From positions 79,381 through 143,380 of the forward strand of contig DFOW01000001.1 in NCBI GenBank assembly GCA_002376885.1: 64,000 bases of DNA, given 5' to 3'. A program made the position numbers and the translations under genes. Source of the DNA: Patescibacteria group bacterium UBA3531 (GTDB lineage: Bacteria; Patescibacteriota; Minisyncoccia; Phycocordibacterales; UBA3531). Positions 3,001 through 42,490 of the stretch are shown in pieces; the stretch's first letter is position 1; each line of letters begins with the position of its first letter. The notes beneath the pieces were generated by a model. It was not told the origin of the DNA. It saw nothing but the letters and a program-made list of their open reading frames with translations, and did no database searches.

Positions 3001-3939
3001 GTTATCAAAATCAACAGGACGACCACCACGTGGAGTCCCTACCGATAGAGACCCTATAGCGCGTCGCGTAAAACTTGTATCTGTGCCGTCGTTCTCATAC
3101 CAAGCAAAAGGACTTGACGAATTTTTTGCAACCGTTACTACATCCAAGTCGCCATCCTTATCAAAATCAAGTGGTCGTGCCCTCCATGCAGACGAAGCAT
3201 TGGAACTTGTATCGATTGATCTTCGCGTAAATGATAAGTCTGTGCCATCGTTTTGGTACCACATAAATTCTTGACCTTCATCAGCGGCAGCAACCACATC
3301 TATGTCTCCATCTTCATCGAAATCAATCGCTTCAATATAGGCAGCACCCGTTGCTGCCGCTGTTGCATCAATACTCCGTTTTGTAAAACTCGTATCGCTC
3401 CCGTCGTTTTGATACCATGCAAATTCTCCATCATTTTGTGCAGCCCCCAAAACATCAAGATCACCGTCTTCGTCAAAATCAATTACATAAATGTTACTCG
3501 GCTCACCAAGGTTGGAATCTATCTCGTGGAAGGTAAACGATGTATCTGTGCCGTCGTTCTCATACCAAGAATAAACACCAAGAGTAATACCAAGTCCATG
3601 CGCAGCCATAACCACATCTATATCTCCGTCTTCATCGAAGTCGATGGGCTGCACATCAAACATACTCGTTGTGCTTGCGGCAGTACTATCTATGAGGTGT
3701 CTGGTAAAAGATAGATTGGTTCCATTGTTTTCGTACCAGGCAAAGTTCGTTGATGCACCACTGATTACGTCCATATCTCCGTCTTCGTCGAAGTCAAAAA
3801 CTTCCACGTTTCTTGCGGCTACTGCAGCGATCTGATGACGCACATAAGGTCCAGATGCATCCACGTAGGAAACCAAGGAAAGCGATGCGAGTGCACCTAA
3901 AATACCAATTGTTAATATAGAAAGATTTTTTTTATACAT
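1..3939 (-). CDS. Giant secreted surface protein. N-terminal signal peptide, about nine FG-GAP/VCBS-like repeats, then a Thr-rich beta-helix-like region and a C-terminal putative peptidoglycan-binding domain.
   Basis: 1312-aa ORF with stop TGA at 1..3. Repeated DFDxDGDxDV and AWYENDGT motifs typical of FG-GAP/VCBS. C-terminus TSAQVTSIITLLTSFNVD...YPEGLTTGYYG...FYGYAGP resembles a PG_binding_1 fold. Signal peptide MYKKNLSILTIGILGALASLSLVSYVDA. Confidence 0.8.
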   Translation of the reverse strand: MYKKNLSILTIGILGALASLSLVSYVDASGPYVRHQIAAVAARNVEVFDFDEDGDMDVISGASTNFAWYENNGTNLSFTRHLIDSTAASTTSMFDVQPIDFDEDGDIDVVMAAHGLGITLGVYSWYENDGTDTSFTFHEIDSNLGEPSNIYVIDFDEDGDLDVLGAAQNDGEFAWYQNDGSDTSFTKRSIDATAAATGAAYIEAIDFDEDGDIDVVAAADEGQEFMWYQNDGTDLSFTRRSIDTSSNASSAWRARPLDFDKDGDLDVVTVAKNSSSPFAWYENDGTDTSFTRRAIGSLSVGTPRGGRPVDFDNDGDFDFVAGSLDDELLWFENDGSDTSFTSRMVEDGTTYMDNPENVVPTDFDDDGDIDFVVSALGSSEIAWYESKFMQGTAYSDEGSTALGSGKTVALSVSGGSTLNTDFFTTTTASDGTFSFSTTTTGITEGAAIAIYLDGETEKASAFSIVGPGGLANLDLYQNHILIKNDNTGTTTNTIVSSSDTSDSDDLLSISGGAITVGTDSDYELYIPDGYTLTQDASITVGDSDTSSDLKVVGTLDANNQNMTVYGDLLIDSSLGSLLGGSGTITVSGDWTDSGNKFTDETSTVILDGTGTITTLSPVFYNLNIGSSGQTTTLSTSVTVDRVLTFGGGTITDGTSGGNGTFILRAAIATPVVDSGTSDFSGISFEYDTTTQENIVAGVMKTLDLSALTAGGSYSLTGSTTVLGNLPLNPLSGTKTLNTAGHDLTVLGQTTIGLAGVVNAQITISGDSSVTFGALSESNGSPAGAITTTNGNTLTFTDDLTLDTAGTLIVGTSTIIFAATSTDQTIEINDSFYNLTINNTGASGSNDVIFVNNVDVDNNLTITDGDLDIDTNNVTLTVGEDITIGSGGSYTRNGEAFTIDGTTTYTDNSGAFDLGDLTVSSSTAVASLTLASNATSSGLTIASGETFSLGSNNLYLTDATASATPLTVNGTFTPGTGTVTYKATSTQTTIPVLQYYNLALDGGASFLTSAVTTVLNSFTNLGGYLNESTGYISASSTTSLNQEGYTTSDSPTITVLDGDANTSATSTDSFTITTTLSNGDTETVTLTETGSATGIFTGSPSINTGSVSGSDGALNVPSGSTILTATFTDTKESTDVTSDTATITNTGGTTNTSASSGSVAALPPSFGGGLGAPTTPTQPSQPSTGSGLTSAQVTSIITLLTSFNVDQATLDTVRNILQGNTSPTGDQTFTVSTTNLTGPFRFNTTSSQTRLLQQILAQDTTIYPEGLTTGYYGSLTRKAVGKFQERHNLAIPTDAFYGYAGPQTRATIKQVFN

Positions 3940-7444: not shown

Positions 7445-7581
7445 GGTATTTTATTTATCTAATAAGTGATTCTTATTATATCGCTGAAATGTTATCTCGC
7501 AAAACAAGAAAAGACTCAATCCCCAGGTTTACTAATTTAATCCTTGCCTCGTGCCATACTTTAAACAGAGAGGGGGAGGTC

Positions 7582-7842
7582 ATGTTTGAACTTGTCCTCA
7601 TCTTCATTTCCACGTTCGATGGGAAAATGGCGGGAAGTACCGTCATCAATCATGAGGTCGTTGGTTTGTTCGACACCAAGACTCAATGTGAGCGACACGC
7701 CGACGCCTATGAAGGGGGTACGTGGCGCAAGTTCACGCTCATGGGCTCGAACAAGGACAACGAGAGGGTCCAGGTACAACTCATGATGAAGTGCATGCCA
7801 GCTGGCCAGGGACCGGCAGTTGCGAAGAGGCCGTCCAAATAA
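7582..7842 (+). CDS. Small hypothetical protein encoded in a high-GC patch
   Basis: GGAGG RBS directly upstream of the ATG, G/C-enriched third codon positions. Followed by a GC-rich hairpin (ggccg...cggcc) plus T-run. Confidence 0.4.
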   Translation: MFELVLIFISTFDGKMAGSTVINHEVVGLFDTKTQCERHADAYEGGTWRKFTLMGSNKDNERVQVQLMMKCMPAGQGPAVAKRPSK

Positions 7843-7886
7843 GGCGGCCTTTTCCCTACTCCATAACCCAAAAGTGTTACTCAAAA

Positions 7887-7915
7887 CAAAAGACCCCCCA
7901 ACGGGGCTCTTTTGC
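7887..7915. terminator. Bidirectional intrinsic-terminator-like hairpin (caaaagaCCCC...GGGGctcttttg) between convergent small genes
   Basis: Imperfect GC stem flanked by an A-run upstream and a T-run downstream on the plus strand. Confidence 0.45.
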
Positions 7916-7935
7916 AGCTTCTTTTAATATTAAAA

Positions 7936-8097
7936 TTAGCTCTTTGGGAGTATCTTGTACATCCCGGTACCACAGACGGAACACTTGCCCTTAGCTGCCT
8001 TTCGTCCATTCTTCATGGTAACCTCTTGGACGTCTTGCATCTCTCGGCCCGCTTTGTCCCGACACTTTACGCAGTACCCCATTACTTTGTCTGACAT
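7936..8097 (-). CDS. DUF5679-like small zinc-ribbon protein (53 aa)
   Basis: MSDKVMGYCVKCRDKAGREMQDVQEVTMKNGRKAAKGKCSVCGTGMYKI matches the CxxC-(MKNGR)-CxxCG pattern of the DUF5679 family common in Actinobacteria. Start chosen at the internal Met of the longer 112-aa ORF. Confidence 0.55.
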   Translation of the reverse strand: MSDKVMGYCVKCRDKAGREMQDVQEVTMKNGRKAAKGKCSVCGTGMYKILPKS

Positions 8098-8161
8098 ATA
8101 CAAAAATCCTACCACATAGGCAGGATTTTTGAATAGAGGCCTCCGCTCCTGTGGAAATCGA

Positions 8162-8545
8162 TTATTTGAACCATCCTTTGACTGACCGTGGGATTCCCTG
8201 CACAAAGAAGAGGGCAAGTGGTGCACCAATATTGGCAAATTGTTCAACAAAATCCCAAATCGGTTCTCCTGCAAGTGGGCGAAGCACAGCTGTCCATGTC
8301 CCCCAAAGAGTCATCCATAAGAGAAGAATTGGGATAAGCCGTACCAATACAAGAACCGCAAGGATTATATCCATAATTCCAATAAGTTGGAGCAATTGTG
8401 TGATTTGAGCAGGATCAGTCATTCCTATAACGTTGAAGTATGGGAACCATCCCTCCTTTCCTTGAAGCGCAAATACTCCATGCCCCAAAAATTCTCCCGC
8501 AACAGTAATACGCAAGGTCCATTCAACCTTTTTTTCGTTTGTCAT
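8162..8545 (-). CDS. Hypothetical integral membrane protein (about 4 TM)
   Basis: 127-aa ORF with native low GC and hydrophobic helices. Downstream hairpin aaaaatcctacc...ggcaggattttt (8103..8131). Confidence 0.6.
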   Translation of the reverse strand: MTNEKKVEWTLRITVAGEFLGHGVFALQGKEGWFPYFNVIGMTDPAQITQLLQLIGIMDIILAVLVLVRLIPILLLWMTLWGTWTAVLRPLAGEPIWDFVEQFANIGAPLALFFVQGIPRSVKGWFK

Positions 8546-8950
8546 AGGCTATGTAAAATTATGCTAATAATATTTTATCGACCTCTTTAAAAAAGAGAGG
8601 GAAAATTCACACCTTTATTATATCAAGCGCTCATGATCTAAAAACCAAAAAATCCCCTCTTTATGGGGATTTTTGTCCAGTGTGGTGGACCACACTATCC
8701 CGTCACTCGAACCGCTCCAATTCGCCCTGGTGTCGAACTTCGTCATCCTCTTTGGGACGAGAAGATGCTCGAGATGCAACGCAAATGGATTTGGGAATTG
8801 AATCCGAGATTAGAGAAAGATGAAGTTGAAGCTGCCGTCTATGCGTGGCTTGCGTATGCGGAGTATGTGGTAAGGTTGGTGGAGAGAAAGTGAACCAAAG
8901 AGAAAGGCCCGACCGAGGTCTGACCAATCTCTTGGTTGACCTGTCGGGCC

Positions 8951-9452
8951 CTACTTGTCCAGGTCGACGAACGAGGCGTCGATGAGCGTCAGGTACTCGA
9001 GGTCCGGACTGACGTCGCCGATGACGTTGCCGAGCTCGCCCACATCATCCGGGACGCCGACCACCAGGCACTCGAGGCCCATGTAGGTCACCTTCATGCC
9101 GGACTTGAGAGTCTGGCCCTTGAGCTGCTTGAGCACCTCGCGGGGAATCCCCTCGTCATCACCCCAGGCGAACGCGCGCGGAATCCCGAACCTCTCCAGA
9201 ACGCTGCTCCAGAAGAGCTCCGCGTCCCACTCCTCGTACTCCCCATCGGGATACTCCTCGAGACTTGTGACACGGGCAGCTTCCCGAAGAACGCTCGCCG
9301 GGATGCACGGACGGGTCGTCTCGTCGTCGGTGAAGAGACTCGGGAACCCCTTCTGGAGACCCTCGAGGGGTCGCCTTGTCGTCGGTCAAGCTCACGCAGA
9401 GCCTGAGCCACGGATCGGAGACCTTGCAGATTTCCTGCCAATTCCTGTTCAT
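8951..9452 (-). pseudogene. High-GC gene of unknown function, apparently frameshifted
   Basis: The minus-strand frame reading ...EEYPDGEYEEWDAELFWSSVLERFGIPRAFAWGDDEGIPREVLKQLKGQTLKSGMKVTYMGLECLVVGVPDDVGELGNVIGDVSPDLEYLTLIDASFVDLDK* has almost exclusively G/C at third positions. The only upstream ATG (9452, MNRNWQEICKVSDPWLRL) lies in a different frame. Confidence 0.45.
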
Positions 9453-9588
9453 GGTCCTTCTCTCTCCTTCCTGAATCCGCCAGCCGAAGCTGGTGTGTTC
9501 AGGTAGAGAGAGAAATCACTACCTGGGTGGATAGTGACACAGTATTGTGTATTTGTCTAGACTACGAGATTCACCGTAGTGACGATAG

Positions 9589-9662
9589 TGGACCCGACTG
9601 GATTCGAACCAGCGACCTCCTGAGTGCAAAACAGGTGCTCTAGCCAACTGAGCTACGGGCCC
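9589..9662 (-). tRNA. tRNA-Ala (anticodon UGC)
   Basis: Minus-strand sequence GGGCCCGUAGCUCAGUUGGCUAGAGCACCUGUUUUGCACUCAGGAGGUCGCUGGUUCGAAUCCAGUCGGGUCCA. Acceptor stem carries the G3:U70 wobble that is the Ala identity element, T-loop GGUUCGAAUCC, anticodon loop UUUGCAC. CCA is not encoded. Confidence 0.85.
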
Positions 9663-9738
9663 CTCACATGAAATCGTATTGCACGAAGTGCGTTTGCGAC
9701 TGCAAACAATACCATTTCATGTGAGGGGCTACGGGCCC
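9661..9738. repeat. Hairpin element beside the tRNA 5' end. It has a 14-bp inverted repeat (ccctcacatgaaat / atttcatgtgaggg) with internal sub-hairpins, and is flanked by a 13-bp direct repeat of the tRNA 5' end (gagctacgggccc / gggctacgggccc).
   Basis: Read directly: IR at 9661..9674 and 9715..9728. Inner stems gtattg/caatac, gtttgc-gact-gcaaac, gcac-gaa-gtgc. DR at 9650..9662 and 9726..9738. Confidence 0.6.
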
Positions 9739-9741
9739 TAC

Positions 9742-9999
9742 TCAACCCGCGAGAGAATTATATATTCTTTTCTTCAGATGTGTAAAGGCTCCACTAAATC
9801 TCTTCAACTGCTTTTCTCTATACTTTGCATCAGAACGAGAGTTATAAGCTTCGTAATATACTAACTCAAAAGGAGCCTTACTTTTTGTTGATTTACTCTG
9901 TTTTGTATTATGTTCCTCAAAACGTCTTTTTAAATCATTGGTATAACCAATATAGAGACTTTCATCTGTCTTGCTCTTCAAGACATACACATAATACAT
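9742..9999 (-). CDS. GIY-YIG nuclease-superfamily small protein (UPF0213-like)
   Basis: MYYVYVLKSKTDESLYIGYTNDLKRRFEEHN fits the GIY-x10-YIG motif followed by the R...E...N core. Confidence 0.8.
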   Translation of the reverse strand: MYYVYVLKSKTDESLYIGYTNDLKRRFEEHNTKQSKSTKSKAPFELVYYEAYNSRSDAKYREKQLKRFSGAFTHLKKRIYNSLAG

Positions 10000-10020
10000 A
10001 AGGGCAGAAGAATTATACTG

Positions 10021-10977
10021 TTACTTCCTTAAATGCGCAAGGTCTAAAACATGACCTAAAAAGTCTTTAAAAGACGTCCCTGCGCTCCGCAGGGATTTAT
10101 GCACCAAAGAATCACGGTGGAGCCCCGGCAAGCTGTTTACCTCGAGCAAAAAAACTCCTCGTTTTGGATCAATAATGCAATCAACTCGAGAATAATGACG
10201 CAACCCTAACTTTTTGTGAGCTTGTGCTGCAATGTTTTTAACCATCCAATGCTCTTCTGACGAAAGATCTTCTGGAAAAGTAAGATTTGAAATCTGCTGT
10301 TTAGTTTCGTAATCAAGAATAGGTGTATTTTTTTGGATAACTACAGGCGGCAAAACATGAACCACCCCGTCCCCCTCAACTACAAGAGACGAGACTTCTT
10401 TCCCGTTTATATATTCCTCAACAAGTACAGAATCGCCATATTCAAGAGCCTCCTCTACTCCACGTCTAAGTTCTTCAAACGATCGCGCATAGGATACTCC
10501 AAGTGATGCCCCCTCCCTTGTTGGCTTAATTACCCATGGCGGGCTCACAGAATTAAAAATGTACCTGAGTGCATTTTCTATATCATCGTTTTTGTGGATT
10601 ATGGTTGCATGGGGAATTTTGAATCCATGTTTTTTAAAGTGGTCCCGCGCCAAATGCTTGTGTAATGAGAGCATACTTGGGAACCCTTGCGAGCCCGTAT
10701 ATGGCACTCCTAGAGATTCTAGTATGTGTTGTACTTTTCCATCTTCTCCATACCCGCCATGCAATGCATTAAAGATGATATCTACTTTTCGCGCAGCCTC
10801 TTCTGGAGAAACAGGGGCTCCATATACATGCCATGTTCCATCACGAGCCACAAAAATATCGAGTGTATCAAAGTCTTCAGGAATGTTTTTTAAAACATGT
10901 TGGCCAGAAAGAACAGAAATATCGTAAAGAGAACTTTTGCCCCCACGCAAAACACCAACTACTTTTCGATTAGCCAT
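10021..10977 (-). CDS. ddl: D-alanine--D-alanine ligase (ATP-grasp)
   Basis: N-terminal KVVGVLRGGKSSL, ATP-grasp central region and C-terminal EVNSLPGL motifs. Confidence 0.85.
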   Translation of the reverse strand: MANRKVVGVLRGGKSSLYDISVLSGQHVLKNIPEDFDTLDIFVARDGTWHVYGAPVSPEEAARKVDIIFNALHGGYGEDGKVQHILESLGVPYTGSQGFPSMLSLHKHLARDHFKKHGFKIPHATIIHKNDDIENALRYIFNSVSPPWVIKPTREGASLGVSYARSFEELRRGVEEALEYGDSVLVEEYINGKEVSSLVVEGDGVVHVLPPVVIQKNTPILDYETKQQISNLTFPEDLSSEEHWMVKNIAAQAHKKLGLRHYSRVDCIIDPKRGVFLLEVNSLPGLHRDSLVHKSLRSAGTSFKDFLGHVLDLAHLRK

Positions 10978-15050: not shown

Positions 15051-15152
15051 TTTGAATGATTATAGCACAGGGTCGCATTATGCCTGTGGATATGCTATAA
15101 GGTTTCTAGATTTATAACCTATTGCCCTTCGTGGCTAGGAAAGGACAGTACC

Positions 15153-16295
15153 TTGAGACATCGAAGTCGAGTCATGTTTTTTATGGCCGTAGTGGTCATG
15201 ATGAACATCGGTGCAAACGATTGCCAGAACAACCAGGCACCGGTCCCCTCTCCGCTTCCTCAGCCTCTCATGACGATGCTTGCAGGAAACGATATGGAGG
15301 TTCGTGGGAACGACTGCCCTGTCACCTCGACATTTGTTGAGGCAAGCTGGAACGGAGGCCCTTGGATCTACGTCGGCTCATGCACCCTCGGTGAGTACGA
15401 AGGATTTCTGCCTCCCCAGGGGGCTGGCCATGGAATCCTCGCCATCCGAGACAACACAGGGCAGATCCTCCGAACGACACTTTCTGTCGGATGGGGTCTA
15501 CCGATCGAGATCACCGGCCAGTCGAATGCCACTGGCCTCATGGAAACCTTGATCAATGCGATCTCTTCGCTTGCTTCGGTATTCATGGTCGGCCACCAGA
15601 ACGAGGCCGAATCCATCAAGCACGCCGACGATCGCTTCACCGACCACGGCAATGGCTCTGCGTGGCCCCTCCTTGCAGATGAAATCATTGGACAGACAGG
15701 GCTTCCTGTCATGTTCATTTCTTCACCGGTGGGGGCAACATCAGTCAGCCAGTGGGTTCCTGGTGGGAATCTTCGCGAAAGGGCGAAGGATCTGAGAATG
15801 ACCGCAACGAATGATTGTTCGGCTGCAGACATCTTCTACCAGGGAGAGAACGAACCTGTATTCGCCTCTAATCCCACGATCGATCCCGAAACGGGTCTGA
15901 CTTTTGGCGAGCTGTGGCTCGCCTCAATCGGGGGAGATTTGAAGCAGTACTACAAGGGAGAGCTCTTCAAGATCGCAGACGATCACATGAATGCGGGGTG
16001 TGGAGGAACTCCGCTTGTCATCGTCCAGATTGGAGACAATACTGCCAACCAGAATCCAGGTATCCAGGGCTTCATCCAAGAGGTTCGGGACGCCCAGTAC
16101 GAGGCAGCAATCGAGCACCCCAACATCCACCTGGGAGCCTGTACTGCCGGTCTTCCGGTCCCTGACGGTCTCCACCTGGGCGATGATGCTCGAGAGGAAT
16201 TCGTTTCGCGACTCATGAAAGGCTTGGCGCCAGTGCTCTGGGGTGGGCCGGTTCCAACCGACGAAGAGCTTGGATGCACGCCTCCGCAAGTCTAG
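15153..16295 (+). CDS. SASA/SGNH-type carbohydrate esterase encoded in a high-GC island (homologous to the N-terminal domain of the adjacent giant protein)
   Basis: Blocks ITGQSNATG, SAWPLLADEIIGQTGLPVMFISSPVGATSVSQW, IFYQGENEP, VPDGLHLGDD. Strong G/C third-position bias. The start may instead be the Met at 15174. GC-rich terminator follows the stop. Confidence 0.7.
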   Translation: MRHRSRVMFFMAVVVMMNIGANDCQNNQAPVPSPLPQPLMTMLAGNDMEVRGNDCPVTSTFVEASWNGGPWIYVGSCTLGEYEGFLPPQGAGHGILAIRDNTGQILRTTLSVGWGLPIEITGQSNATGLMETLINAISSLASVFMVGHQNEAESIKHADDRFTDHGNGSAWPLLADEIIGQTGLPVMFISSPVGATSVSQWVPGGNLRERAKDLRMTATNDCSAADIFYQGENEPVFASNPTIDPETGLTFGELWLASIGGDLKQYYKGELFKIADDHMNAGCGGTPLVIVQIGDNTANQNPGIQGFIQEVRDAQYEAAIEHPNIHLGACTAGLPVPDGLHLGDDAREEFVSRLMKGLAPVLWGGPVPTDEELGCTPPQV

Positions 16296-16313
16296 CACTC
16301 GAACTTTTCACAA

Positions 16314-16346
16314 GGGCCACGTACTTCCGGTACGTGGCCCTTTTCG
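16314..16346. terminator. Intrinsic terminator hairpin gggccacgtac-ttccg-gtacgtggccc followed by a T-run, between the convergent esterase and giant-protein genes
   Basis: Perfect 11-bp GC-rich stem read directly, with ttttcgtt downstream. Confidence 0.6.
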
Positions 16347-16371
16347 TTCATATAGTTATATGTTTTTTCTC

Positions 16372-19107
16372 TTACTTCTCAAATACCTCCCTCATCTTTG
16401 CTCTAGTTTGTGGTCCTGCATACCCATAAGCAGGGTGGTCTGGTCCTGCAATGGTGTGGCGAATCTGGAACCGTTCTACAGCTTTGGTAGTAAGTGTTCC
16501 ATAGTAGCCAGTGATTAATCCTTCAGGGTAGATAGTAGGGTCCTGAGCGAGTATTTGTTGGAGTAATCTGTTTTGTGGCGTGGTTTGGTTCACCTGGAAA
16601 GGCCCTGTGAGTTGTGAGACATCAATTGCATAGGTGGTTTGTTGTGATTGGTTTCCTTCTAAAATACGTCGTACAGTCTCAAGAGTGATTTGATCTACAT
16701 TAAAAGAGGTGAGAAGCGTAATAATGGAGGTGATTTGAGAGTTTGAGAGGCTGCTTCCTGTGCTTGGTTGAGTTGGAGTGATTGGAGTACTGCCCGTATT
16801 TTGTGAGAAACTTGGGGGGAGAACAGCAACAGAGCCGGTGGATGAAGAGGATGAGGACCCAGAAGCGGCGGCAGCTTGGGACGCTGAATGAGTAACCGTT
16901 GCCGTATCGGTCGAGATATCGATTGATTCTTTTGAATCAATGAACGTTAATGTAAGAGTATCATTCCCACCAATGGGGAAATCAAGTGTACCGTCTCCTG
17001 TTGTCACGCTTCCTGTCGCAAGCGTAATGGTTCCAGTAAAGACACCTGTTGCATTGCCAGTTTCAGTTAAGGTAACAGTTTCTGTATCAGTTGCAATAGT
17101 GGTGGTGGCCACAATACTATCGGTCGAAGTGGCACTAATATTCGCGTCGTAGTCAGTAACCGTAAGGGTAACCGTATCCCCTGTTTCGTAAGAGGTTGCA
17201 TCAAGTGCCGCAGATGAAGAAGCACTAATGTAACCCGTTGCTTCGTTCAGATAACCAGCACTATTGGTAAAGGTTCCTGTAACAGTGGTCACCCCTTCTG
17301 TCACAAACGAGGCTGCCCCTCCTAGAGTTAAATTATTGTATTGAGTAGCTTCAATAGTGGTTTGAGTTGAGGTTGCCTTGTAGTTAACAGTACCTGTTCC
17401 TGGAGTGAAAGTTCCGTTTACAGTCAGGGGAGTTGAGCTTCCAGTGGCATCAGTAAGGTACAGCGTATTGGAACCAAGGGCCAAGGTTTCTCCACTTCCC
17501 ACCACGATACCAGAACTTGTTGCATTTGATCCCAAAGTGAAGGTTGCAGCAGCTGAGGATGAGGCAATAGTAAATTCTCCTAGGTTGAACACCCCAGAGT
17601 TATCTGTATAGGTAGTAGTACCATCAAAAGTAAGTGATTCATTTGTTCGGGTCCAAGCCCCATTTAGTCCCACGGTAAAGTCTCCCCCTATCGTGAGGGT
17701 CGCATCGTTGGTATCAATATCCAAATCCCCGTCAGTTAGTGTAAGGTCATTATCGACATCAACATTGTTGGTAAATATCACATCGTCATTCCCTGTTGAG
17801 CCAGTATGATTTACCACAAGATCGTAGAAAGAGTTTCCTGCAACCATATCAATTGTTTGATCAGTTGAAGTTGCAACCAGGTTTACTGTTGACGTTCCAA
17901 AACTAAATGTTGCTGTTTCAGCCCCGTTTACCATGTCGATATCGCCAGAAAAATTCACTGTATTACCATTATGTACTTGTATAGCTGCTGACTCCCCATT
18001 ATTTTCATACGCAGTAAAATCGTGAAAAGACGCGGTACTGTTTCCTGTGACATCAATACGAGAGGGATAATATACAACATTTACCCCAAGTAGGTCTTCT
18101 CCTAGTTGGGTGGTTCCATACTGAACATCAAGATCATAACCCGCAGTAGTTAAGGTGGAAACATTTGTATCGTGGTTGCCGTAAAACCTAAAGCCAGTTG
18201 ATGTTGCTGTGATATCACCAGTAAGAGTTAGCGTCATAGCACCCCCAGCATTGTCTGCTCTTCCGATATCAATGCCATTTGCTGTGAAAGGAGGTATGTT
18301 GTGAGTAGTTCCTAGGGCAGTAAATTGAATCCTTGTAACCGGCGTAAGAGCAACTCCGTTTCTCAAAACTACAGGTGTGGTGTTAATACTTGAGCTAGGA
18401 AATGATAGTGAGTCGTTCCCCAAAAAACCAATAAATGGTGCTCCATTCAAAACAAGCTGGTGATTAATACTAATAGGAGTAGAATAAGCAATCGACCAAA
18501 AGGAAGTCTGAATGTGCACCAACTTATAAAAAACTAGTGTTGAGTTATCGGTTGTAGTAACAAAATGCCCAGTAAGTCCATCAAAAACATATGTTGCTGT
18601 CTCTGGCTGAATTCCTTGCAAGGAGGATGTAACAGTACTCCCCAAGCGTCCAAAAATAGTTGTTGTTCCTGTTCCTGGATAATATCTTCCTCGAGAGTTG
18701 GCATTAAGGAACCCGGCCTCTGTAAATCCCTCTGAGTTGGTGATCGTAACATTTGCTCCATCGTTTATGTCAACCGTATGGATCCTACTATTACATGTTG
18801 AAGTGGTTGAACCAACTTGGAGTCTCCCCAGTGTGATACTTGTTGTGGCCGTAACTGTAATATTTCCACTTGCAGAAGTGTTACAAATATCTACATTGTA
18901 CTCTGCACCATCTGGAAAAGCGCCACAACTCCAGTTACTAACTGAGTCAAACCATCCTCCACTTCCATCTTTTATCCAATTACATTTTGTTTCGGCGGCA
19001 TACACAAATGTACCACCCAAAAAAGAGAGTCCCATAAAGAGCAAAGACAGAAACAATGCAAAAAAGGGAAAGTTTTTTAAATTTTTTTTACTAAAAAATT
19101 TTTTCAT
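16372..19107 (-). CDS. Giant secreted surface protein, paralog 3. Cys/Trp-motif N-terminal head, beta-helix-like Thr-rich region, and a diverged copy of the shared C-terminal module with putative peptidoglycan-binding domain.
   Basis: Signal peptide/TM at the N-terminus. CNWIKDGSGGWFDSVSNWSCGAFP motif. TSTDQTID...NNVDVDNDLTLTDGDLDIDTN block and C-terminal ITSIITLLTSFNVDQ...YPEGLITGYYG...YGYAGP, each aligning with the other two giants. Confidence 0.8.
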   Translation of the reverse strand: MKKFFSKKNLKNFPFFALFLSLLFMGLSFLGGTFVYAAETKCNWIKDGSGGWFDSVSNWSCGAFPDGAEYNVDICNTSASGNITVTATTSITLGRLQVGSTTSTCNSRIHTVDINDGANVTITNSEGFTEAGFLNANSRGRYYPGTGTTTIFGRLGSTVTSSLQGIQPETATYVFDGLTGHFVTTTDNSTLVFYKLVHIQTSFWSIAYSTPISINHQLVLNGAPFIGFLGNDSLSFPSSSINTTPVVLRNGVALTPVTRIQFTALGTTHNIPPFTANGIDIGRADNAGGAMTLTLTGDITATSTGFRFYGNHDTNVSTLTTAGYDLDVQYGTTQLGEDLLGVNVVYYPSRIDVTGNSTASFHDFTAYENNGESAAIQVHNGNTVNFSGDIDMVNGAETATFSFGTSTVNLVATSTDQTIDMVAGNSFYDLVVNHTGSTGNDDVIFTNNVDVDNDLTLTDGDLDIDTNDATLTIGGDFTVGLNGAWTRTNESLTFDGTTTYTDNSGVFNLGEFTIASSSAAATFTLGSNATSSGIVVGSGETLALGSNTLYLTDATGSSTPLTVNGTFTPGTGTVNYKATSTQTTIEATQYNNLTLGGAASFVTEGVTTVTGTFTNSAGYLNEATGYISASSSAALDATSYETGDTVTLTVTDYDANISATSTDSIVATTTIATDTETVTLTETGNATGVFTGTITLATGSVTTGDGTLDFPIGGNDTLTLTFIDSKESIDISTDTATVTHSASQAAAASGSSSSSSTGSVAVLPPSFSQNTGSTPITPTQPSTGSSLSNSQITSIITLLTSFNVDQITLETVRRILEGNQSQQTTYAIDVSQLTGPFQVNQTTPQNRLLQQILAQDPTIYPEGLITGYYGTLTTKAVERFQIRHTIAGPDHPAYGYAGPQTRAKMREVFEK

Positions 19108-20496: not shown

Positions 20497-20557
20497 AGAC
20501 CTATGATACTATACGCGAAGACTTGAGCTCACAACCCCTTACAAGAAGGAAGAAATC

Positions 20558-20953
20558 ATGAGCGAACCCGATGGAAAAGTTCAATTGCCACCCTCTCCAC
20601 CTCTCGACTTGCACCTGCTCATTAGCAGTGTGCTCATGCAGGAAGCGGAAGAACTCCTGGAGGAGCTCGGCATCGTAGAGAAGCTCGAACCCTTCATTGC
20701 GAGCGCCCTCGAGTCGATCGAACGATCTCGACAGGCAGAGATCGCAAATACCAGGGAGAAGCTCGGGCCGTTCTTCAAGATCGACACGGAAGTTCCGGAG
20801 CCGGTGCGGGGAGTTTCTCCTCCTCCTGCACACCTGCTCGAGAAGATGGGGGGACTTCGGAAGCCCGCCCTCGAGCGACTCGGCGAGCTTCTCGGTCGTG
20901 CACTCAAGCACAGGATCGATGCACGCTACCGAACGATCGGAAGCACTGCCTAG
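20558..20953 (+). CDS. Hypothetical protein in a high-GC patch between uvrC and uvrA
   Basis: 131-aa ORF with G/C-biased third positions, acidic helical sequence, followed by a GC-rich terminator. Confidence 0.45.
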   Translation: MSEPDGKVQLPPSPPLDLHLLISSVLMQEAEELLEELGIVEKLEPFIASALESIERSRQAEIANTREKLGPFFKIDTEVPEPVRGVSPPPAHLLEKMGGLRKPALERLGELLGRALKHRIDARYRTIGSTA

Positions 20954-20960
20954 AAGGGCT

Positions 20961-20995
20961 CACGGCCGGAGGAAACTCCGGCCGTGCTCTATTTA
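20961..20995. terminator. Intrinsic terminator cacggccggag-gaaa-ctccggccgtg plus T-rich tail (bidirectional; uvrA converges on it)
   Basis: Perfect 11-bp stem and GAAA tetraloop read directly. Confidence 0.65.
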
Positions 20996-23541
20996 AGATA
21001 TTTCTTCAAATATTTCCCGGTAATAGATTTTGGATTGTTGGCAACTTCTTCTGGGGTCCCTTTTGCCACAAGCTTTCCACCATTAACTCCCCCTTCAGGG
21101 CCAAGATCAATTAAGTAGTCGGAACTCTTAATAATTTCCATATTGTGTTCGATCAAGACGACCGTGTTTCCCCGTTCAATTAATTTTTGCAAAATAGTAA
21201 GGAGGTTTTTTACATCTTCATAATGAAGCCCAATCGTTGGTTCATCAAGTAAGTACACAGTCTTTTCAGTAAACGGACGGTACAATTCTTTTGAGATTTT
21301 TACCCGTTGTGCTTCCCCACCAGAGAGCGTTGTAGCGCTCTGTCCTAATTCTAAATATCCAAGACCAACATCGTTCAAGGTTTTCAAACGATCATAAATT
21401 GCAGGGATTTCTTCAAAAAACGTCATTCCCTCTTCGATCGTCATGGTGAGCACTTCATAAATATTTTTATGTTTGTACTTAACTTCGAGCGTTTCTTTTT
21501 GGAAGCGCTTACCCATACAGACATCGCAGGTTACATAGACAGTCGGTAAAAATTGCATTTCAACTCCTACTTCTCCATTACCTTGGCAGGCTTCGCATCG
21601 TCCGCCTTTGACATTAAAGCTAAAACGTCCAGGACCCCATCCACGGAACCGCGCCTCTTCCGTCGTTGCAAACAAATCTCTAATATGACTCCATGCGCCA
21701 GTGTAGGTTGCTGGATTTGAACGAGGGGTTCTTCCAATAGGACTTTGATCAATCAAAATAGTTCGATGAGCATACTCTGTCCCGGTAAAGTTTTTACAAT
21801 TGAAAACTTCGTTGCTCCTAAACTTTCTGTCGAGTCGTGCACGCAAGTTTCTGTGTAAAATGTCGTACAAAAAACTTGATTTACCAGAACCGGACATTCC
21901 GGTAACGGTAACCATTCGCCCAAGAGGAACCTCCACATTGAGATTTTGAATATTGTGGATCTTGCCTCCGCTTACTTTAAGTGAACCCTTATTTTTGTTG
22001 CGTCTTTTTTCTGGAATCTCTACCTCTTCTTCTCCTCGTAAATACTTAAGGGTAAGCGAATTATTTTTTGGAGTTTTTGCCGTCAAAAGTTTTTCCGTGT
22101 AGTCGGCTACTACAATATCACCGCCATGCACTCCCGCACCAGGACCAATATCGACTAGATAGTCAGAAGCAAAAATAGTGTCTTCATCGTGCTCTACCAC
22201 CAAAATAGTATTGCCAAGCTCACGCAAATCTTTGAGCGTTTTAATAAGTCTGTCATTGTCTTTTTGATGGAGGCCAATCGTTGGTTCATCTAATACATAC
22301 AAGGCACCTACCAATCGTGAGCCTAGTTGCGATGCCAACCTAATACGCTGTGCCTCTCCACCAGAGAGGGTATTTGCTTTTCTATTTAACCCCAAGTAAT
22401 CAAGTCCGACATCAAACATAAACTTGAGCCGCGCCTCAATCTCTTTTGTTACTACGTTCGAAATTTCTTTTTCTTTTTTGGTAAGTTTGAGCTTTTCGAA
22501 AAACGTACGTCCATCTTTAATGGTAAGCCCCGTAACTTCAACAATATTTTTACCACCAATAAGAACGTTTAACGCCTCTTTACGTAATCGCGCACCATTA
22601 CATTCTTCACACACCTCGTTTCCAAAAAAGTGTTTTGTTCCGAGTCCGTGGCAAGCCTCACACGCACCATACGGTGAGTTGAATGAAAAGAGTCGTGGCT
22701 CAATCTCAATAAACGAGAATCCGTCTTTTGGACACGTATAACTTGAAGACATTAAAAATTCGTCCTTCTTTTTCCCTTCTTTGATAATTACTTTTACAAC
22801 ACCGTGCGCTTCTTCAAGCGCTCGTTCAATGTCCTCTGAAAGACGTTCGGTAAATGCTTTTTTATCCCTGTCTGACGACGAGGCAGGTTCAGTTTCTTCT
22901 TTGGTAAACTCATCTACTACAACTTCAATGTCATGTTTTTTTGTTTTGGTAAGGATGATCTGCTCTCGTAATTGCTTACGTTTTCCATCAACGATAACAT
23001 CGGCAAATCCTTTCCCTAAAAGATCATAAAGTAATTGATAGTGTTCACCCTTTCGTCCACGAACCACAGGAGCCGAAATAATGATTTTTGCTTTTTTGGT
23101 AGTTTTACCAATTTTTAGAAGTGTTAAGTTAATGATTTCTTCGTTTGAGAGTTTTTGGATTTCGTCACCACACACCAAACAATGGGGCTTGCCCACTCGG
23201 GCAAAAAGAACCCGTAAGTAATCGTAGATTTCGGTAATGGTTGCCACGGTTGATCGTGGATTGTTTGACCGAGACTTTTGATCGATAGAGATTGCAGGAG
23301 AAAGCCCACTAATTTCATCAATGTCTGGTTTTTGCATTTGTCGCAAAAATTGCCGCGCGTATGCCGAAAGCGACTCAACATAACGCCGTTGCCCTTCGGC
23401 AAAAATGGTATCAAATGCCAAACTCGATTTACCTGAACCTGAAAGTCCAGTAAACACAATCATCTTATTGCGCGGTATCTCAAGGCTGATATTTTTTAAA
23501 TTATGCGTTCGCGCTCCTTTTACTTTAATCTTATCTTCCAT
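20989..23541 (-). CDS. uvrA: Excinuclease ABC subunit A
   Basis: Two ABC ATPase modules (GLSGSGKSSLAFDTIFAEGQRRYVESLSAYARQF; second Walker A GMSGSGKSS), zinc-finger cysteines, LSGGE signature motifs. Confidence 0.9.
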   Translation of the reverse strand: MEDKIKVKGARTHNLKNISLEIPRNKMIVFTGLSGSGKSSLAFDTIFAEGQRRYVESLSAYARQFLRQMQKPDIDEISGLSPAISIDQKSRSNNPRSTVATITEIYDYLRVLFARVGKPHCLVCGDEIQKLSNEEIINLTLLKIGKTTKKAKIIISAPVVRGRKGEHYQLLYDLLGKGFADVIVDGKRKQLREQIILTKTKKHDIEVVVDEFTKEETEPASSSDRDKKAFTERLSEDIERALEEAHGVVKVIIKEGKKKDEFLMSSSYTCPKDGFSFIEIEPRLFSFNSPYGACEACHGLGTKHFFGNEVCEECNGARLRKEALNVLIGGKNIVEVTGLTIKDGRTFFEKLKLTKKEKEISNVVTKEIEARLKFMFDVGLDYLGLNRKANTLSGGEAQRIRLASQLGSRLVGALYVLDEPTIGLHQKDNDRLIKTLKDLRELGNTILVVEHDEDTIFASDYLVDIGPGAGVHGGDIVVADYTEKLLTAKTPKNNSLTLKYLRGEEEVEIPEKRRNKNKGSLKVSGGKIHNIQNLNVEVPLGRMVTVTGMSGSGKSSFLYDILHRNLRARLDRKFRSNEVFNCKNFTGTEYAHRTILIDQSPIGRTPRSNPATYTGAWSHIRDLFATTEEARFRGWGPGRFSFNVKGGRCEACQGNGEVGVEMQFLPTVYVTCDVCMGKRFQKETLEVKYKHKNIYEVLTMTIEEGMTFFEEIPAIYDRLKTLNDVGLGYLELGQSATTLSGGEAQRVKISKELYRPFTEKTVYLLDEPTIGLHYEDVKNLLTILQKLIERGNTVVLIEHNMEIIKSSDYLIDLGPEGGVNGGKLVAKGTPEEVANNPKSITGKYLKKYLK

Positions 23542-35385: not shown

Positions 35386-35407
35386 AACTAAAGTATATCA
35401 CGAGGTA

Positions 35408-35435
35408 TTTGACAAACTTTTTGGTACGTCTAGTA
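35408..35435 (+). promoter_or_regulatory. Sigma70-like promoter TTGACA-N16-TAGTAT upstream of the IclR-like gene
   Basis: Read directly; low-GC promoter immediately followed by a high-GC coding patch. Confidence 0.45.
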
Positions 35436-35490
35436 TGGAAATCAGAATTGGGGGGATGGGCCGTGTGCCCAAAAGGAGCTCGGAAAGCAA

Positions 35491-35964
35491 ATGCCGAAAG
35501 CAGCCGAAGAGTACATGATCGAGACGCTCGCCCGAGGGATGAGGGTCTTCGCCCTCATCGCAACGAGTCCCTCGAACAGCATCGGGGTGACCGAGATCGC
35601 GACGACGTTGGATCTTCAAAAGAACAACGTCTTCCGGATCCTGAAGACGCTCGAGGTGGAAGGCTTGGTCTCCCACAACGGCGAGACCGATGCCGACAAG
35701 TGCCGCTACGGGCTGGGGCCCAAGGCCATCGAGCTCGGCGAGTGGCTCCTCATCCACGCCGACAAGACCGTGGTCGAGGTGGTCGAGTTCTTCAAGGGAG
35801 CCGATGGGCCGGGGAGCGTGAAGCTCACGGCAACAGCTCGCGTCGAGAACCGTGACGACGTCGAGGAGGACCTCCGGATGGAGGCGAGCGAGCTCGCCGG
35901 ACGTCTGGCGGTCACGCCCGACGAGGGGCTCGAAGTCGTTCCCGCAACCGGGACCGACGGCTAG
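35491..35964 (+). CDS. Truncated IclR-family transcriptional regulator (N-terminal HTH only), in a high-GC patch
   Basis: VFALIATSPSNSIGVTEIATTLDLQKNNVFRILKTLEVEGLVS matches the IclR HTH_IclR domain. GC-rich codons. Followed by a GC-rich hairpin plus ttctttct. Confidence 0.6.
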   Translation: MPKAAEEYMIETLARGMRVFALIATSPSNSIGVTEIATTLDLQKNNVFRILKTLEVEGLVSHNGETDADKCRYGLGPKAIELGEWLLIHADKTVVEVVEFFKGADGPGSVKLTATARVENRDDVEEDLRMEASELAGRLAVTPDEGLEVVPATGTDG

Positions 35965-36015
35965 AGCTACGAAAGAGGGAGGCCACTGGGAGACCGGTGG
36001 CCTTCTTTCTATTAC

Positions 36016-36402
36016 TTATTCTGTGGTAACCCCGTCAAAATGTTCCTCTTTTTCTTCTGCTTTTGTTGGGTGAACTGTTTGATCTTTGTGTTCAGGAGGC
36101 GAATAAATACTGTAAAGTTTTAAATCGTTATCACTAGTATTGATTACATTGTGTTTTGTTCCTTGTGGAATAACTACCGCCATCTCTGCATAAACATCAT
36201 GTTCCACATCATCCAAAATCACCTTTCCTTTTCCCTCTTCAAACCGAATAAACTGATCGAGCTCATGCACCTCCTCTCCAATCTCGTCTCCTGGTTTTAT
36301 GGTCATCAATACTAATTGACTGTTTTTTGATGTATACAGGACCCTTCTGTAATCTTTATTTTCTTTGGTTTCTTTTTCTATGTTTGCTATATATCCTTTC
36401 AT
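36016..36402 (-). CDS. Cupin-fold protein
   Basis: 128 aa. Metal-site-like pattern G.E.G.E.H....F..E (GDEIGEEVHELDQFIRFEEG) and a second cupin motif PQGTKHNVIN. Confidence 0.65.
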   Translation of the reverse strand: MKGYIANIEKETKENKDYRRVLYTSKNSQLVLMTIKPGDEIGEEVHELDQFIRFEEGKGKVILDDVEHDVYAEMAVVIPQGTKHNVINTSDNDLKLYSIYSPPEHKDQTVHPTKAEEKEEHFDGVTTE

Positions 36403-42435: not shown

Positions 42436-42490
42436 GAATAAGGGAGCCAATCCCCGTCGTTTACAATTTTTCCTAAAACGACGGGGATTG

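What the first reader, a model, noticed from the sequence alone, without database searches (positions are those of the whole stretch)
8690..9662. High-GC island abutting the 3' end of tRNA-Ala, carrying a frameshifted gene and a degenerate tRNA-3'-like remnant at its far edge
tRNA 3' ends are classic integration sites. The island starts right after the tRNA (9589). Its far boundary (8695..8725, gtggacc...tcgaacc..ctcc) resembles the tRNA 3' segment gtggacc..tcgaacc..cctcc with indels, as a decayed att repeat would. Inside, the GC3-rich minus-strand gene (8951..9452) has its ATG in a different frame from the long open frame, indicating a frameshift (decay or sequencing error). No integrase is present, so this would be a remnant.
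Basis: partly seen in the sequence, partly recalled or inferred. Interest (0 to 1): 0.55.

Follow-up and report, generated by a model that had tools for sequence, protein, structure and literature searches.

The report
Dead foreign gene beside tRNA-Ala
A roughly 0.9 kb piece of foreign, GC-rich DNA sits right after a tRNA-Ala gene in a small-genome (Patescibacteria) bacterium; it carries one gene of an unstudied protein family, disabled by a one-base insertion, so it is an ordinary decaying gene-transfer remnant with some unusual details.

Summary
**Confirmed**
- tRNA-Ala(UGC) lies at 9589-9661 on the minus strand.
- A GC step lies just 3' of it. The best two-change-point segment is 8905-9429 at 63.6% GC. 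Gene GC3 is about 0.86, against 0.29-0.38 for native genes.
- The minus-strand gene 8951-9452 is frameshifted. The extra base is in a C4 run at 9367-9370. Four assemblies from different accessions carry it, so it is not a sequencing error.

**The gene.** The repaired protein (166 aa) aligns end to end with about 95 proteins of 160-180 aa. The only named sources are Parcubacteria MAGs. It has no Pfam, NCBIfam, PHROG, PADLOC or PDB-sequence match. The AlphaFold model is very confident (pLDDT 97) and has no fold match in PDB or BFVD.

**The far-edge "tRNA-like" repeat is weak.**
- Unanchored alignment is at chance.
- Anchored at the tRNA end, it matches 7 bases exactly, 10 of 12, or 16 of 21 with a 6-nt gap (p about 0.005-0.05).
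- It reads GGTCCACCA 8 nt before a terminator, the arrangement found right after tRNA-Ala in relatives.
- Three relatives carry clear 15-19-nt repeats of the same extent.

**Verdict.** This is a horizontally acquired single-gene remnant, probably inserted at the tRNA 3' end. No integrase is present. Interest is modest.

The parts
9589..9661 (-). tRNA-Ala(UGC), native. It has G3:U70 and no encoded CCA. Its 3' end (A73 = 9589) is the near boundary of the inserted block.
   Evidence: ARAGORN; Rfam tRNA 67.7 bits; the ddl->tRNA-Ala(UGC) adjacency is conserved in about 20 Patescibacteria loci.
9453..9588 (-). Intermediate-GC (48%) stretch between the tRNA and the gene's ATG. It holds a weak terminator-like hairpin (9538-9515) and a long leader hairpin (9512-9460). 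The leader hairpin has a CCAGC-UUCG-GCUGG tip (9493-9480) and pairs the Shine-Dalgarno-like GGAAGGAGAGAG (9471-9460).
   Evidence: Terminator scan. RNA fold -56.3 kcal/mol, z = -5.4, no shuffle folds as well. No sigma-70-like promoter was found here on the minus strand; the nearest is 9786-9757, upstream of the tRNA.
8951..9452 (-). Pseudogene of an uncharacterised Patescibacteria protein family (called famX here). 62.5% GC, GC3 about 0.86. The repaired product is 166 aa, acidic (pI 4.3).
   Evidence: Three-frame translation; exhaustive HMMER found 96 relatives; full-length alignment retains all 13 near-invariant residues; composition; pI.
9367..9370 (-). Frameshift site. A CCCC run on the minus strand (GGGG on the plus strand) carries one extra base relative to intact homologues. 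Only the first 27 codons are in the family's reading frame with the ATG.
   Evidence: Same run in four assemblies.
8893..8955 (-). The gene's own GC-rich hairpin terminator: GGCCCGAC...GTCGGGCC followed by a T-rich tract.
   Evidence: Inverted repeat I5; fold -32.8 kcal/mol. Homologues in L057, L062, L007, L009 and L063 also end in their own GC-rich hairpins.
8712..8892 (.). Intermediate-GC (47-56%) filler. Gene callers place a 76-aa plus-strand ORF here (8663-8893), but it has no relatives. Probably non-coding remains of foreign, possibly older, DNA.
   Evidence: The word-index protein search found only a 99%-identical copy of the ORF itself; a weak, sub-threshold Pfam hit was rejected; composition.
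8685..8711 (-). tRNA 3'-end-like motif at the far boundary. On the minus strand it reads TTCGAGTGACGGGATAGTGTGGTCCAC(CA). It matches the tRNA's last 7 nt exactly, 10 of 12, and 16 of 21 with a 6-nt gap. Candidate displaced original tRNA end or att remnant.
   Evidence: for; against significance of the longer similarity.
8648..8674 (-). Hairpin plus T-run terminator, 8 nt after the GGTCCACCA motif. Probably the native terminator of the tRNA-Ala transcript. The DoxX-like gene's promoter region follows it.
   Evidence: Terminator scan: 10-bp stem, TTGGTTTTT tail. About 11 of 23 relatives have the same arrangement of tRNA-Ala end, 8-20 nt, terminator. Similarity to the 74%-identical relative L053 stops at the DoxX promoter.

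Best explanation
**What it is.** About 0.9 kb of horizontally acquired DNA (roughly 8697-9587) was inserted at the 3' end of the native tRNA-Ala(UGC) gene. The insertion separated the tRNA from its original terminator and left a short copy of the tRNA's terminal bases (GGTCCAC, then CA) at the far edge.

**What it carries.** The core of the insert is a self-contained single-gene unit: structured leader, ORF and its own GC-rich terminator. The gene belongs to a 160-180-aa acidic protein family seen so far only in Patescibacteria/Parcubacteria contigs. The donor was most likely a higher-GC member of the same radiation.

**Its state now.** A one-base insertion in a C4 run has since killed the gene. 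The locus is now an inert, decaying remnant that is fixed in this marine population.

**How it got there (inferred, not shown).** The most likely route is site-specific recombination at the T-loop-to-3'-end segment of tRNA-Ala. Related genomes use this site repeatedly. The recombinase was either lost later or acted in trans. The intermediate-GC shoulders may be left over from an earlier occupant of the same site.

**Shown:** foreign composition, family membership, the frameshift and its reality, absence of an integrase, and recurrence of tRNA-Ala 3' repeats in relatives.

**Inferred:** the insertion point, the mechanism and the donor.
For: **Composition**
- Core 63.6% GC against 43% nearby; GC3 0.86 against 0.29-0.38.

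**Family and frameshift**
- 96 HMMER relatives. Matches start at residue 28-34 of the homologues, which is where the frame breaks.
- The repaired protein aligns end to end and keeps all near-invariant residues.

**Reality of the sequence**
- Four assemblies agree.

**Restriction to Patescibacteria**
- The only named sources are Parcubacteria MAGs.
- No hit in viral contigs, phage records or plasmids.

**Repeated single-gene transfer**
- In 8 of 10 other contexts the gene is more GC-rich than its host. Two of these are sharp one-gene islands: L062 63.8% against 39% (GC3 0.90), and L057 62.5% against 46% (GC3 0.84).
- Published work reports that most individually transferred genes in Patescibacteria come from other Patescibacteria (PMC12455944).

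**Insertion at the tRNA end**
- Relatives have tRNA-Ala, then 8-20 nt, then a terminator. The window has GGTCCACCA, then 8 nt, then a terminator, at the far edge.
- Anchored repeat statistics.
- L018 has 19/19 and 18/19 repeats of the tRNA T-loop-to-3'-end segment at +140 and +3888. These flank NYN and methyltransferase genes. L030 has 17/18 and L013 about 15/18.
- 12-mer copies with up to 1 mismatch: 3 in 68 kb downstream, against 1 in 576 kb of control sequence.
Against: - The flanking repeat is only 7 exact bases. Unanchored tests are at chance, and the tRNA covariance model sees nothing at the far edge.
- A repeat this degraded conflicts with a gene that carries a single lesion and unameliorated GC3, unless identity was always limited to a short core or the remnant predates the gene.
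- There is no integrase or fragment of one here. None lies in L018's repeat-flanked island either.
- Other family members are not next to tRNAs.
- No empty site was found. The nearest ddl relatives are 43-45% identical. The 74%-identical DoxX relative is not collinear here.
- No donor was identified. The closest homologue is 45-47% identical and only 47% GC.
Confidence: 0.55

Rival explanations
1. The same foreign single-gene fragment was captured without any integrase. It entered by illegitimate, microhomology-mediated joining, for example after DNA uptake or during repair of a double-strand break at the tRNA gene. The 7-nt GGTCCAC would then be junction microhomology, not an att core.
For: - The insert is small and has no recombinase.
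- The exact repeat is only 7 nt.
- Family members in L057 and L062 are sharp one-gene islands at non-tRNA sites with no mobility genes.
- A GIY-YIG nuclease gene, with duplications of the tRNA 5' end, lies on the other side of the same tRNA. Breaks at this gene are therefore conceivable.
Against: - Relatives show 15-19-nt repeats of a constant extent (T-loop to 3' end). That is the signature of site-specific integration rather than random joining.
- Simple microhomology joining does not by itself duplicate the target on both sides.
- L062 shows no flanking repeat at all.
Confidence: 0.22
2. The gene is foreign and dead, but its position next to the tRNA is incidental. It landed in, or was rearranged into, an intergenic gap, and the far-edge GGTCCACCA motif is a chance match.
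For: - Unanchored alignment statistics are at chance.
- No covariance-model hit.
- Homologues elsewhere sit in many unrelated intergenic contexts: next to uvrA/groES, dinB/lexA-like, htrA, and glycolysis genes.
- Gene order around the DoxX-like gene differs in the 74%-identical relative.
Against: - The anchored match lies exactly where a displaced tRNA end should be, 8 nt before a terminator. About 11 of 23 relatives show this arrangement.
- tRNA-Ala 3' repeats recur in relatives.
Confidence: 0.18
3. The gene is alive. The frame change is bypassed by programmed +1 ribosomal frameshifting or transcriptional slippage at the C run.
For: - The shift lies in a homopolymer run.
- The rest of the ORF is undamaged and keeps all conserved residues.
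- The lesion is fixed in four assemblies.
Against: - All examined homologues are uninterrupted ORFs.
- GCG-ACC-CCU-CGA offers no cognate re-pairing in the +1 frame, and no stop or rare codon follows it (read directly from the sequence).
- Four C's is too short for efficient transcriptional slippage (general knowledge).
- The downstream frame has no start codon before 9136.
Confidence: 0.03
4. Assembly chimera or contaminating high-GC DNA joined to a low-GC contig.
For: A sharp GC step, and an orphan gene that automatic callers annotate on the wrong strand.
Against: - The junctions are identical in contigs from four accessions, built by different assemblers.
- The family is otherwise found inside Patescibacteria contigs.
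Confidence: 0.01

Closest known systems
tRNA-gene-targeting integrative elements / genomic islands (tyrosine-integrase islands that recombine in the T-loop-to-3'-end segment of a tRNA; my own knowledge of the literature, e.g. Williams 2002)
   Same: - Foreign composition.
- The block starts exactly at the tRNA 3' end.
- A copy of the tRNA's terminal bases lies at the far edge, next to native flank.
- The same tRNA segment is repeated downstream of tRNA-Ala in relatives.
   Different: - No integrase or any other mobility gene.
- Only 0.9 kb and one gene.
- The repeat is 7 exact nt (16 of 21 with a gap) instead of a clean core of 15 nt or more.
- No presence/absence polymorphism could be shown.
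Individually transferred genes and small islands in Patescibacteria (PMC12455944)
   Same: A single gene with donor-type composition lies inside an otherwise housekeeping region of a streamlined genome. The donor is probably another Patescibacterium.
   Different: That study worked at the level of genes and islands called by software. It did not describe this family, its GC-rich single-gene islands, or a tRNA-Ala hotspot (the text has no occurrence of 'tRNA' or 'integrase').
Integron gene cassettes
   Same: A unit of one ORF plus a terminal hairpin, 0.6-0.9 kb, found in several unrelated contexts. L057 has a 13/14 direct repeat flanking the unit.
   Different: No integron integrase, no attI or attC-type site was identified, and there are no arrays. 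The hairpins look like ordinary terminators followed by T-runs.
Frameshifted pseudogenes of recently acquired accessory genes
   Same: One disabling indel in a homopolymer run, everything else intact, composition not yet ameliorated.
   Different: Nothing notable. This is the ordinary fate of such genes.

Membership tests
tRNA-integrated genomic island (integrase-mediated) | Lies directly at the 3' side of a tRNA gene | tested here: met
   The block begins at 9588, one base after A73 of tRNA-Ala.
tRNA-integrated genomic island (integrase-mediated) | Flanked by direct repeats (att) that reproduce a 3' segment of the tRNA, usually 15 nt or more | tested here: inconclusive
   7 exact, 10 of 12, and 16 of 21 with a 6-nt gap. 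The anchored p is about 0.005-0.05. Unanchored tests are at chance. The tRNA covariance model gives no hit. Relatives do have 15-19-nt repeats.
tRNA-integrated genomic island (integrase-mediated) | Encodes an integrase/recombinase, or a recognisable remnant of one | tested here: not met
   No Phage_integrase, recombinase or transposase family among the genes called within about 6 kb on either side. The ORFs inside the block have no Pfam hit.
tRNA-integrated genomic island (integrase-mediated) | Composition differs from the host genome | tested here: met
   63.6% against 43% GC; GC3 0.86 against 0.29-0.38.
tRNA-integrated genomic island (integrase-mediated) | Present in some close relatives and absent in others (an empty site exists) | not testable with these tools
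   All four assemblies of this population carry it. The nearest other genomes are 43-45% identical in Ddl or not collinear.
famX (uncharacterised Patescibacteria 160-180-aa family defined here) | Full-length similarity with conserved N-terminal NW..I, GFP.LF, VPAS.LR, IP, QL.GQ and C-terminal FIDL motifs | tested here: met
   phmmer E-values down to 5.6e-24 for full-length members. The alignment of 41 sequences keeps all 13 near-invariant positions.
Pseudogene | Reading frame disrupted relative to intact homologues, with no alternative start that rescues the product | tested here: met
   Frames differ before and after 9367-9370. The homologues are intact. The first start codon in the downstream frame is at 9136 and gives only 61 aa.
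Integron gene cassette | An attC recombination site and an associated integron integrase or cassette array | tested here: not met
   No integrase nearby. The unit is solitary. The 3' hairpin is followed by a T-run, like a terminator. No formal attC model was run.

The most novel reading that the evidence does not exclude
famX genes are autonomous one-gene cassettes (structured leader, ORF, GC-rich terminator). They move between Patescibacteria by an undescribed insertion route that leaves short flanking repeats: 10 of 12 here, 13 of 14 in L057. They keep a donor-type, very high GC3.

In this reading the ddl-linked tRNA-Ala gene is a two-sided hotspot. On its 5' side a small GIY-YIG nuclease element duplicates the tRNA 5' end. 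Breaks or recombination at the tRNA promote capture of such cassettes on its 3' side.
Probability: 0.12. Interest if true: 0.6.

Novelty: new member of a known kind. Interest (0 to 1): 0.33.

Why it matters
The locus itself is a routine example of gene gain followed by decay. Three things give it some value.

1. It defines a protein family of about 100 members that is restricted to Patescibacteria. The predicted fold is very confident and matches nothing in PDB or BFVD. The family turns up repeatedly as a GC-rich single-gene island in low-GC genomes. That makes it a clean marker of gene flow within a radiation where transfer routes are poorly understood.

2. It suggests that the conserved ddl-tRNA-Ala(UGC) locus is a recurrent insertion site in these bacteria.

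3. It warns that automatic gene callers annotate this island on the wrong strand, as a 156- or 136-aa antisense ORF.

Tried and rejected
**Searches with the repaired protein or its family that found nothing**
- Word-index protein search with the repaired protein: no hit. With the 41-sequence profile it returned only 5 proteins.
- Pfam, NCBIfam, PHROGs, PADLOC and the PDB sequence profile: nothing above noise.
- Foldseek against PDB and BFVD: best E 1.4 and 0.33, TM at most 0.23.
- Single-protein scans of viral contigs: nothing.
- blastn and tblastn against plasmids and phages: tRNA hits only, or nothing.

**Looking for an empty site**
- The genome-contig scan with Ddl gave only distant relatives (43-45% identical) with no synteny past the tRNA.
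- The metagenome scan with the DoxX-like protein gave relatives at 74%, 56% and 51% identity. None has ddl, the tRNA or the island beside it.

**The 76-aa plus-strand ORF (8663-8893)**
- Its only relative is its own 99%-identical variant.
- The weak Rv0078B-antitoxin Pfam hit (E 0.0085, below cut-off) was rejected.
- No neighbour is conserved across the famX loci.

**Readings considered and rejected**
- Programmed frameshifting.
- Assembly chimera.
- The plus-strand 156-aa ORF (8936-9406) as the real gene. It is antisense to a gene with 96 relatives.
- A uniform flanking-repeat test across three sharp islands gave no common signature: window p 0.58, L057 p 0.003, L062 p 0.94.
- Amino-acid composition (GARP/FYMINK) did not help to infer the GC of family members for which no DNA was held.
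Full report
**What is at the coordinates**

ARAGORN finds one tRNA in the window: tRNA-Ala(UGC) at 9588-9662 on the minus strand. Rfam's tRNA model agrees at 67.7 bits. From the acceptor pairing (GGGCCCG/CGGGUCC, with the G3:U70 pair) the mature tRNA runs 9661->9589, and CCA is not encoded (sequence).

The window as a whole is 41.5% GC. Just 3' of the tRNA the GC content climbs to 60-65%. A maximum-likelihood two-change-point fit over 7900-10400 picks 8905-9429, at 63.6% GC against 43.2% outside. The stretches 8685-8893 and 9453-9587 are intermediate, at 47-56%. The island is therefore real, but its strongly deviant core is about 525 bp, not the whole 8690-9588.

**The gene and its frameshift**

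Translating the minus strand gives two pieces. The frame of the ATG at 9452 gives MNRNWQEICKVSDPWLRLCVSLTDDKA and then nonsense. A second frame gives PLEGLQKGFPSLF...ASFVDLDK, ending at stop 8951-8953.

An exhaustive HMMER search with the long piece found 96 proteins at E<=1e-3 and 37 at E<=1e-10. Nearly all are 160-180 aa, and the match starts at about their residue 28-34. Their N-termini read M.YKNW.AIC.V...LLRL.V..T.D..IL.GL..GFP.LF. This matches the short in-frame piece and runs straight on into the long one.

Removing one base in or next to the CCCC run at 9367-9370 restores a 166-aa protein. It aligns end to end with 40 family members at 30-45% identity and keeps all 13 near-invariant residues. 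GC3 is 0.85-0.88 on both sides of the shift. Five native genes have GC3 0.29-0.38.

The 4.5 kb around the locus is 100% identical in contigs from JGI 3300020447, ENA ERZ27286447 and Logan SRR5324449. A fourth, low-coverage assembly (ERZ841695) differs by one SNP at 8736 and has the same G4/C4 run. The frameshift is therefore real and fixed, not a sequencing error.

Bypass by programmed frameshifting is unlikely, for three reasons:
- The homologues are uninterrupted.
- GCG-ACC-CCU-CGA offers no +1 re-pairing.
- The downstream frame has no start codon before 9136.

**What the protein is**

The proteins are mostly acidic: median pI 4.9, and 4.3 for this one. No conserved His, Cys, Asp or Lys pattern suggests catalysis. 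My low-confidence guess is a cytoplasmic binding protein.

The only named sources are two Parcubacteria MAGs. The longer contigs carry typical small-genome housekeeping genes. No member was found in viral contigs, phage records or plasmids. No neighbour is conserved.

**Evidence for horizontal transfer**

The table compares the gene's GC with that of its host contig in ten other contexts.

| Locus | famX gene GC | Host contig GC | Difference (points) | Note |
|---|---|---|---|---|
| L062 | 63.8% | 39% | +25 | sharp one-gene island, GC3 0.90 |
| L057 | 62.5% | 46% | +16 | sharp one-gene island, GC3 0.84 |
| L066 | 47.4% | 39.3% | +8 | closest homologue (P0002) |
| L009 | 54.8% | 47.5% | +7 | |
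| L067 | 39.8% | 32.8% | +7 | |
| L007 | 56.8% | 51.0% | +6 | |
| L061 | 43.4% | 38.9% | +5 | same protein as L060; 1.1-kb contig |
| L063 | 58.4% | 55.1% | +3 | |
| L060 | 43.4% | 44.8% | -1 | |
| L058 | 50.8% | 53.2% | -2 | |

The three most GC-rich copies are only 31-44% identical to each other. They were therefore acquired separately, from a diverse and unsampled higher-GC pool. Each unit carries its own GC-rich terminator and a hairpin-containing leader.

This fits published evidence that individually transferred genes are common in Patescibacteria and mostly come from other Patescibacteria (PMC12455944).

An intrinsic, gene-specific reason for high GC3 is not excluded. It is disfavoured by the copies that match their hosts (L058, L060).

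**Was it inserted at the tRNA end?**

*Against.* Ordinary local alignments of the tRNA's 3' 45 nt, or of the whole tRNA, against 8600-8800 score no better than random 200-nt tiles of the window: p 0.07-0.5 depending on scoring. A zone-against-zone test gives p 0.58. Rfam's tRNA model reports nothing in 8630-8830 at E<=10.

*For.* The match is anchored at exactly the right place.
- On the plus strand, GTGGACC-NN-ACT occurs at 8685 and at 9588, the tRNA end. The tRNA-end 12-mer with up to 2 mismatches is expected 2.5 times in 128 kb.
- An end-anchored alignment of the 21-nt T-loop-to-C74 segment scores 7.0: 16 matches and one 6-nt gap. Only 2 of 12,000 random positions reach that score.

*Context in relatives.*
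- In about 20 Patescibacteria loci tRNA-Ala(UGC) lies just downstream of ddl.
- In about 11 of 23 loci it is followed within 8-20 nt by a hairpin/T-run terminator, and 7 of them encode CCA.
- In the window the far-edge motif reads GGTCCACCA, then 8 nt, then the hairpin/T-run at 8648-8674. That looks like the original tRNA end and terminator, displaced by 903 nt.
- Three relatives carry clear repeats of the same tRNA segment downstream of the tRNA. L018 has 19/19 at +140 and 18/19 at +3888, enclosing two NYN-domain genes and a methyltransferase. L030 has 17/18 at +139. L013 has about 15/18 at +841.
- Copies of the tRNA-end 12-mer with up to 1 mismatch: 3 hits in 68 kb downstream, against 1 in 576 kb of control sequence.

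The tRNA-Ala 3' end therefore does seem to be a recurrent insertion site in this lineage.

**Caveats on mechanism**

No integrase or fragment of one is present here, and none is in L018's island. Other famX copies are not next to tRNAs.

A repeat with five mismatches and a 6-nt indel does not fit with a gene that has a single lesion and fresh donor composition. There are three possible explanations:
- Identity was always limited to a short core.
- The insertion used microhomology rather than a recombinase.
- The intermediate-GC shoulders and the far-edge remnant are older than the famX core (serial use of the site, as L018's three repeat copies suggest).

I cannot separate these. No empty site or close relative could be found.

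**Expression signals**

The only good sigma-70-like promoter on the minus strand is at 9786-9757, upstream of the tRNA (11 of 12 matches). A weak terminator-like hairpin (9538-9515) follows the tRNA. The 135-nt leader folds far better than shuffled controls (z = -5.4). Its long hairpin (9512-9460, tipped by CCAGC-UUCG-GCUGG) pairs the Shine-Dalgarno-like GGAAGGAGAGAG. Before its inactivation the gene was therefore probably expressed by read-through, with translation held down by that hairpin (inference).

**Verdict**

The interpretation as a remnant of DNA integrated at a tRNA 3' end is plausible and gains support from related genomes, but it is not proven.

My probability estimates are:
- about 0.9 that this is horizontally acquired DNA carrying a true pseudogene;
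- about 0.75 that it was inserted at the tRNA end;
- about 0.5 that a site-specific recombinase did it.

It is a new member of a known kind, and interest is modest. The more unusual points are the orphan family with a confident unmatched fold, its recurring GC-rich one-gene islands, and the structures on the 5' side of the same tRNA (see items noticed in passing).

Noticed in passing
window 9652-9999; L023 2737-3100; L016 8420-8815; L029 11630-12013; L015 11030-11219; L027 10920-11064; L033 14384-14505: **Partial copies of a tRNA's 5' end lie just upstream of the complete tRNA in several loci.**
- Window: an 11-nt copy of the tRNA-Ala 5' end (9728-9738 against 9652-9662) and a 23-nt inverted repeat (9659-9681 / 9707-9729) sit between the 85-aa GIY-YIG gene and the tRNA.
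- L023: the same kind of repeats (direct GGGCCTTTAGC; inverted CCCTCAC...GTGAGGG) flank the GIY-YIG gene itself.
- L016: a 21-nt copy of the tRNA-Gln 5' end precedes a GIY-YIG gene.
- L029: an interrupted 27-nt copy.
- L015 (two copies), L027 and L033: GIY-less 5' copies.

The chance expectation is about 0.02 copies per locus. This looks like a small GIY-YIG element, with miniature derivatives, that targets the 5' part of tRNA genes. The nearest known analogue I found is phage T4 SegB (PMC2330249).
   Followed up: partly
window 15151-16400, 20551-21100, 35401-36100, 42451-43200, 7560-7900: Other small high-GC patches lie in this 41.5% GC window.
- 15151-16400: a SASA-like 380-aa ORF.
- 20551-21100: an uvrC-uvrA spacer with only no-Pfam ORFs.
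- 35401-36100: a patch peaking at 68% GC, whose ORF (35491-35964) has an IclR HTH N-terminus and a non-matching tail.
- 42451-43200: a patch with no convincing ORF and no Rfam hit.
- 7560-7900: a 52-55% GC stretch between the DUF5679 and glutaredoxin genes.

Together these suggest repeated uptake of GC-rich DNA.
   Followed up: partly
L057 7946-7959 and 8561-8574: A 13/14 direct repeat (11 exact, CCGCCACGGGG) flanks the one-gene GC-rich famX island in a Parcubacteria MAG, with 615-nt spacing. It is unusual against same-contig controls (p 0.003). The second copy is part of a terminator hairpin. No such repeat exists in L062.
   Followed up: partly
L018 11530-11645; L030 11085-11200; L013 about 3420-3590: In three relatives tRNA-Ala and its terminator are followed by a GC-rich segment of 100-130 nt. 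The segment starts similarly in each (..ggag...gattcgaa.gacggaggc..) and ends in a copy of the tRNA's T-loop-to-3'-end. No Rfam family matches it. It could be an att remnant or an undescribed small RNA.
   Followed up: partly
L010, L012, L015, L031 (contig ends): Several MAG contigs stop within about 0-150 nt after the ddl-linked tRNA-Ala(UGC). That would be expected if the downstream region is variable or repeated in those populations.
   Followed up: no
window 8936-9406 (+), 9096-9506 (+), 8951-9136 (-): Public gene calls for this locus are wrong. JGI/Logan call a 156-aa ORF and ENA a 136-aa ORF, both antisense, and one caller kept only the last 61 aa of the real gene (P0001). The real frameshifted gene is on the minus strand.
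   Followed up: yes
window 8162-8545 vs L053/L054: The DoxX-like, glutaredoxin and thioredoxin-reductase genes are syntenic with a 74%-identical relative. In that relative a 136-aa ORF and a large surface protein lie upstream, in place of ddl, GIY-YIG, the tRNA and the island. Similarity ends at the DoxX promoter.
   Followed up: partly
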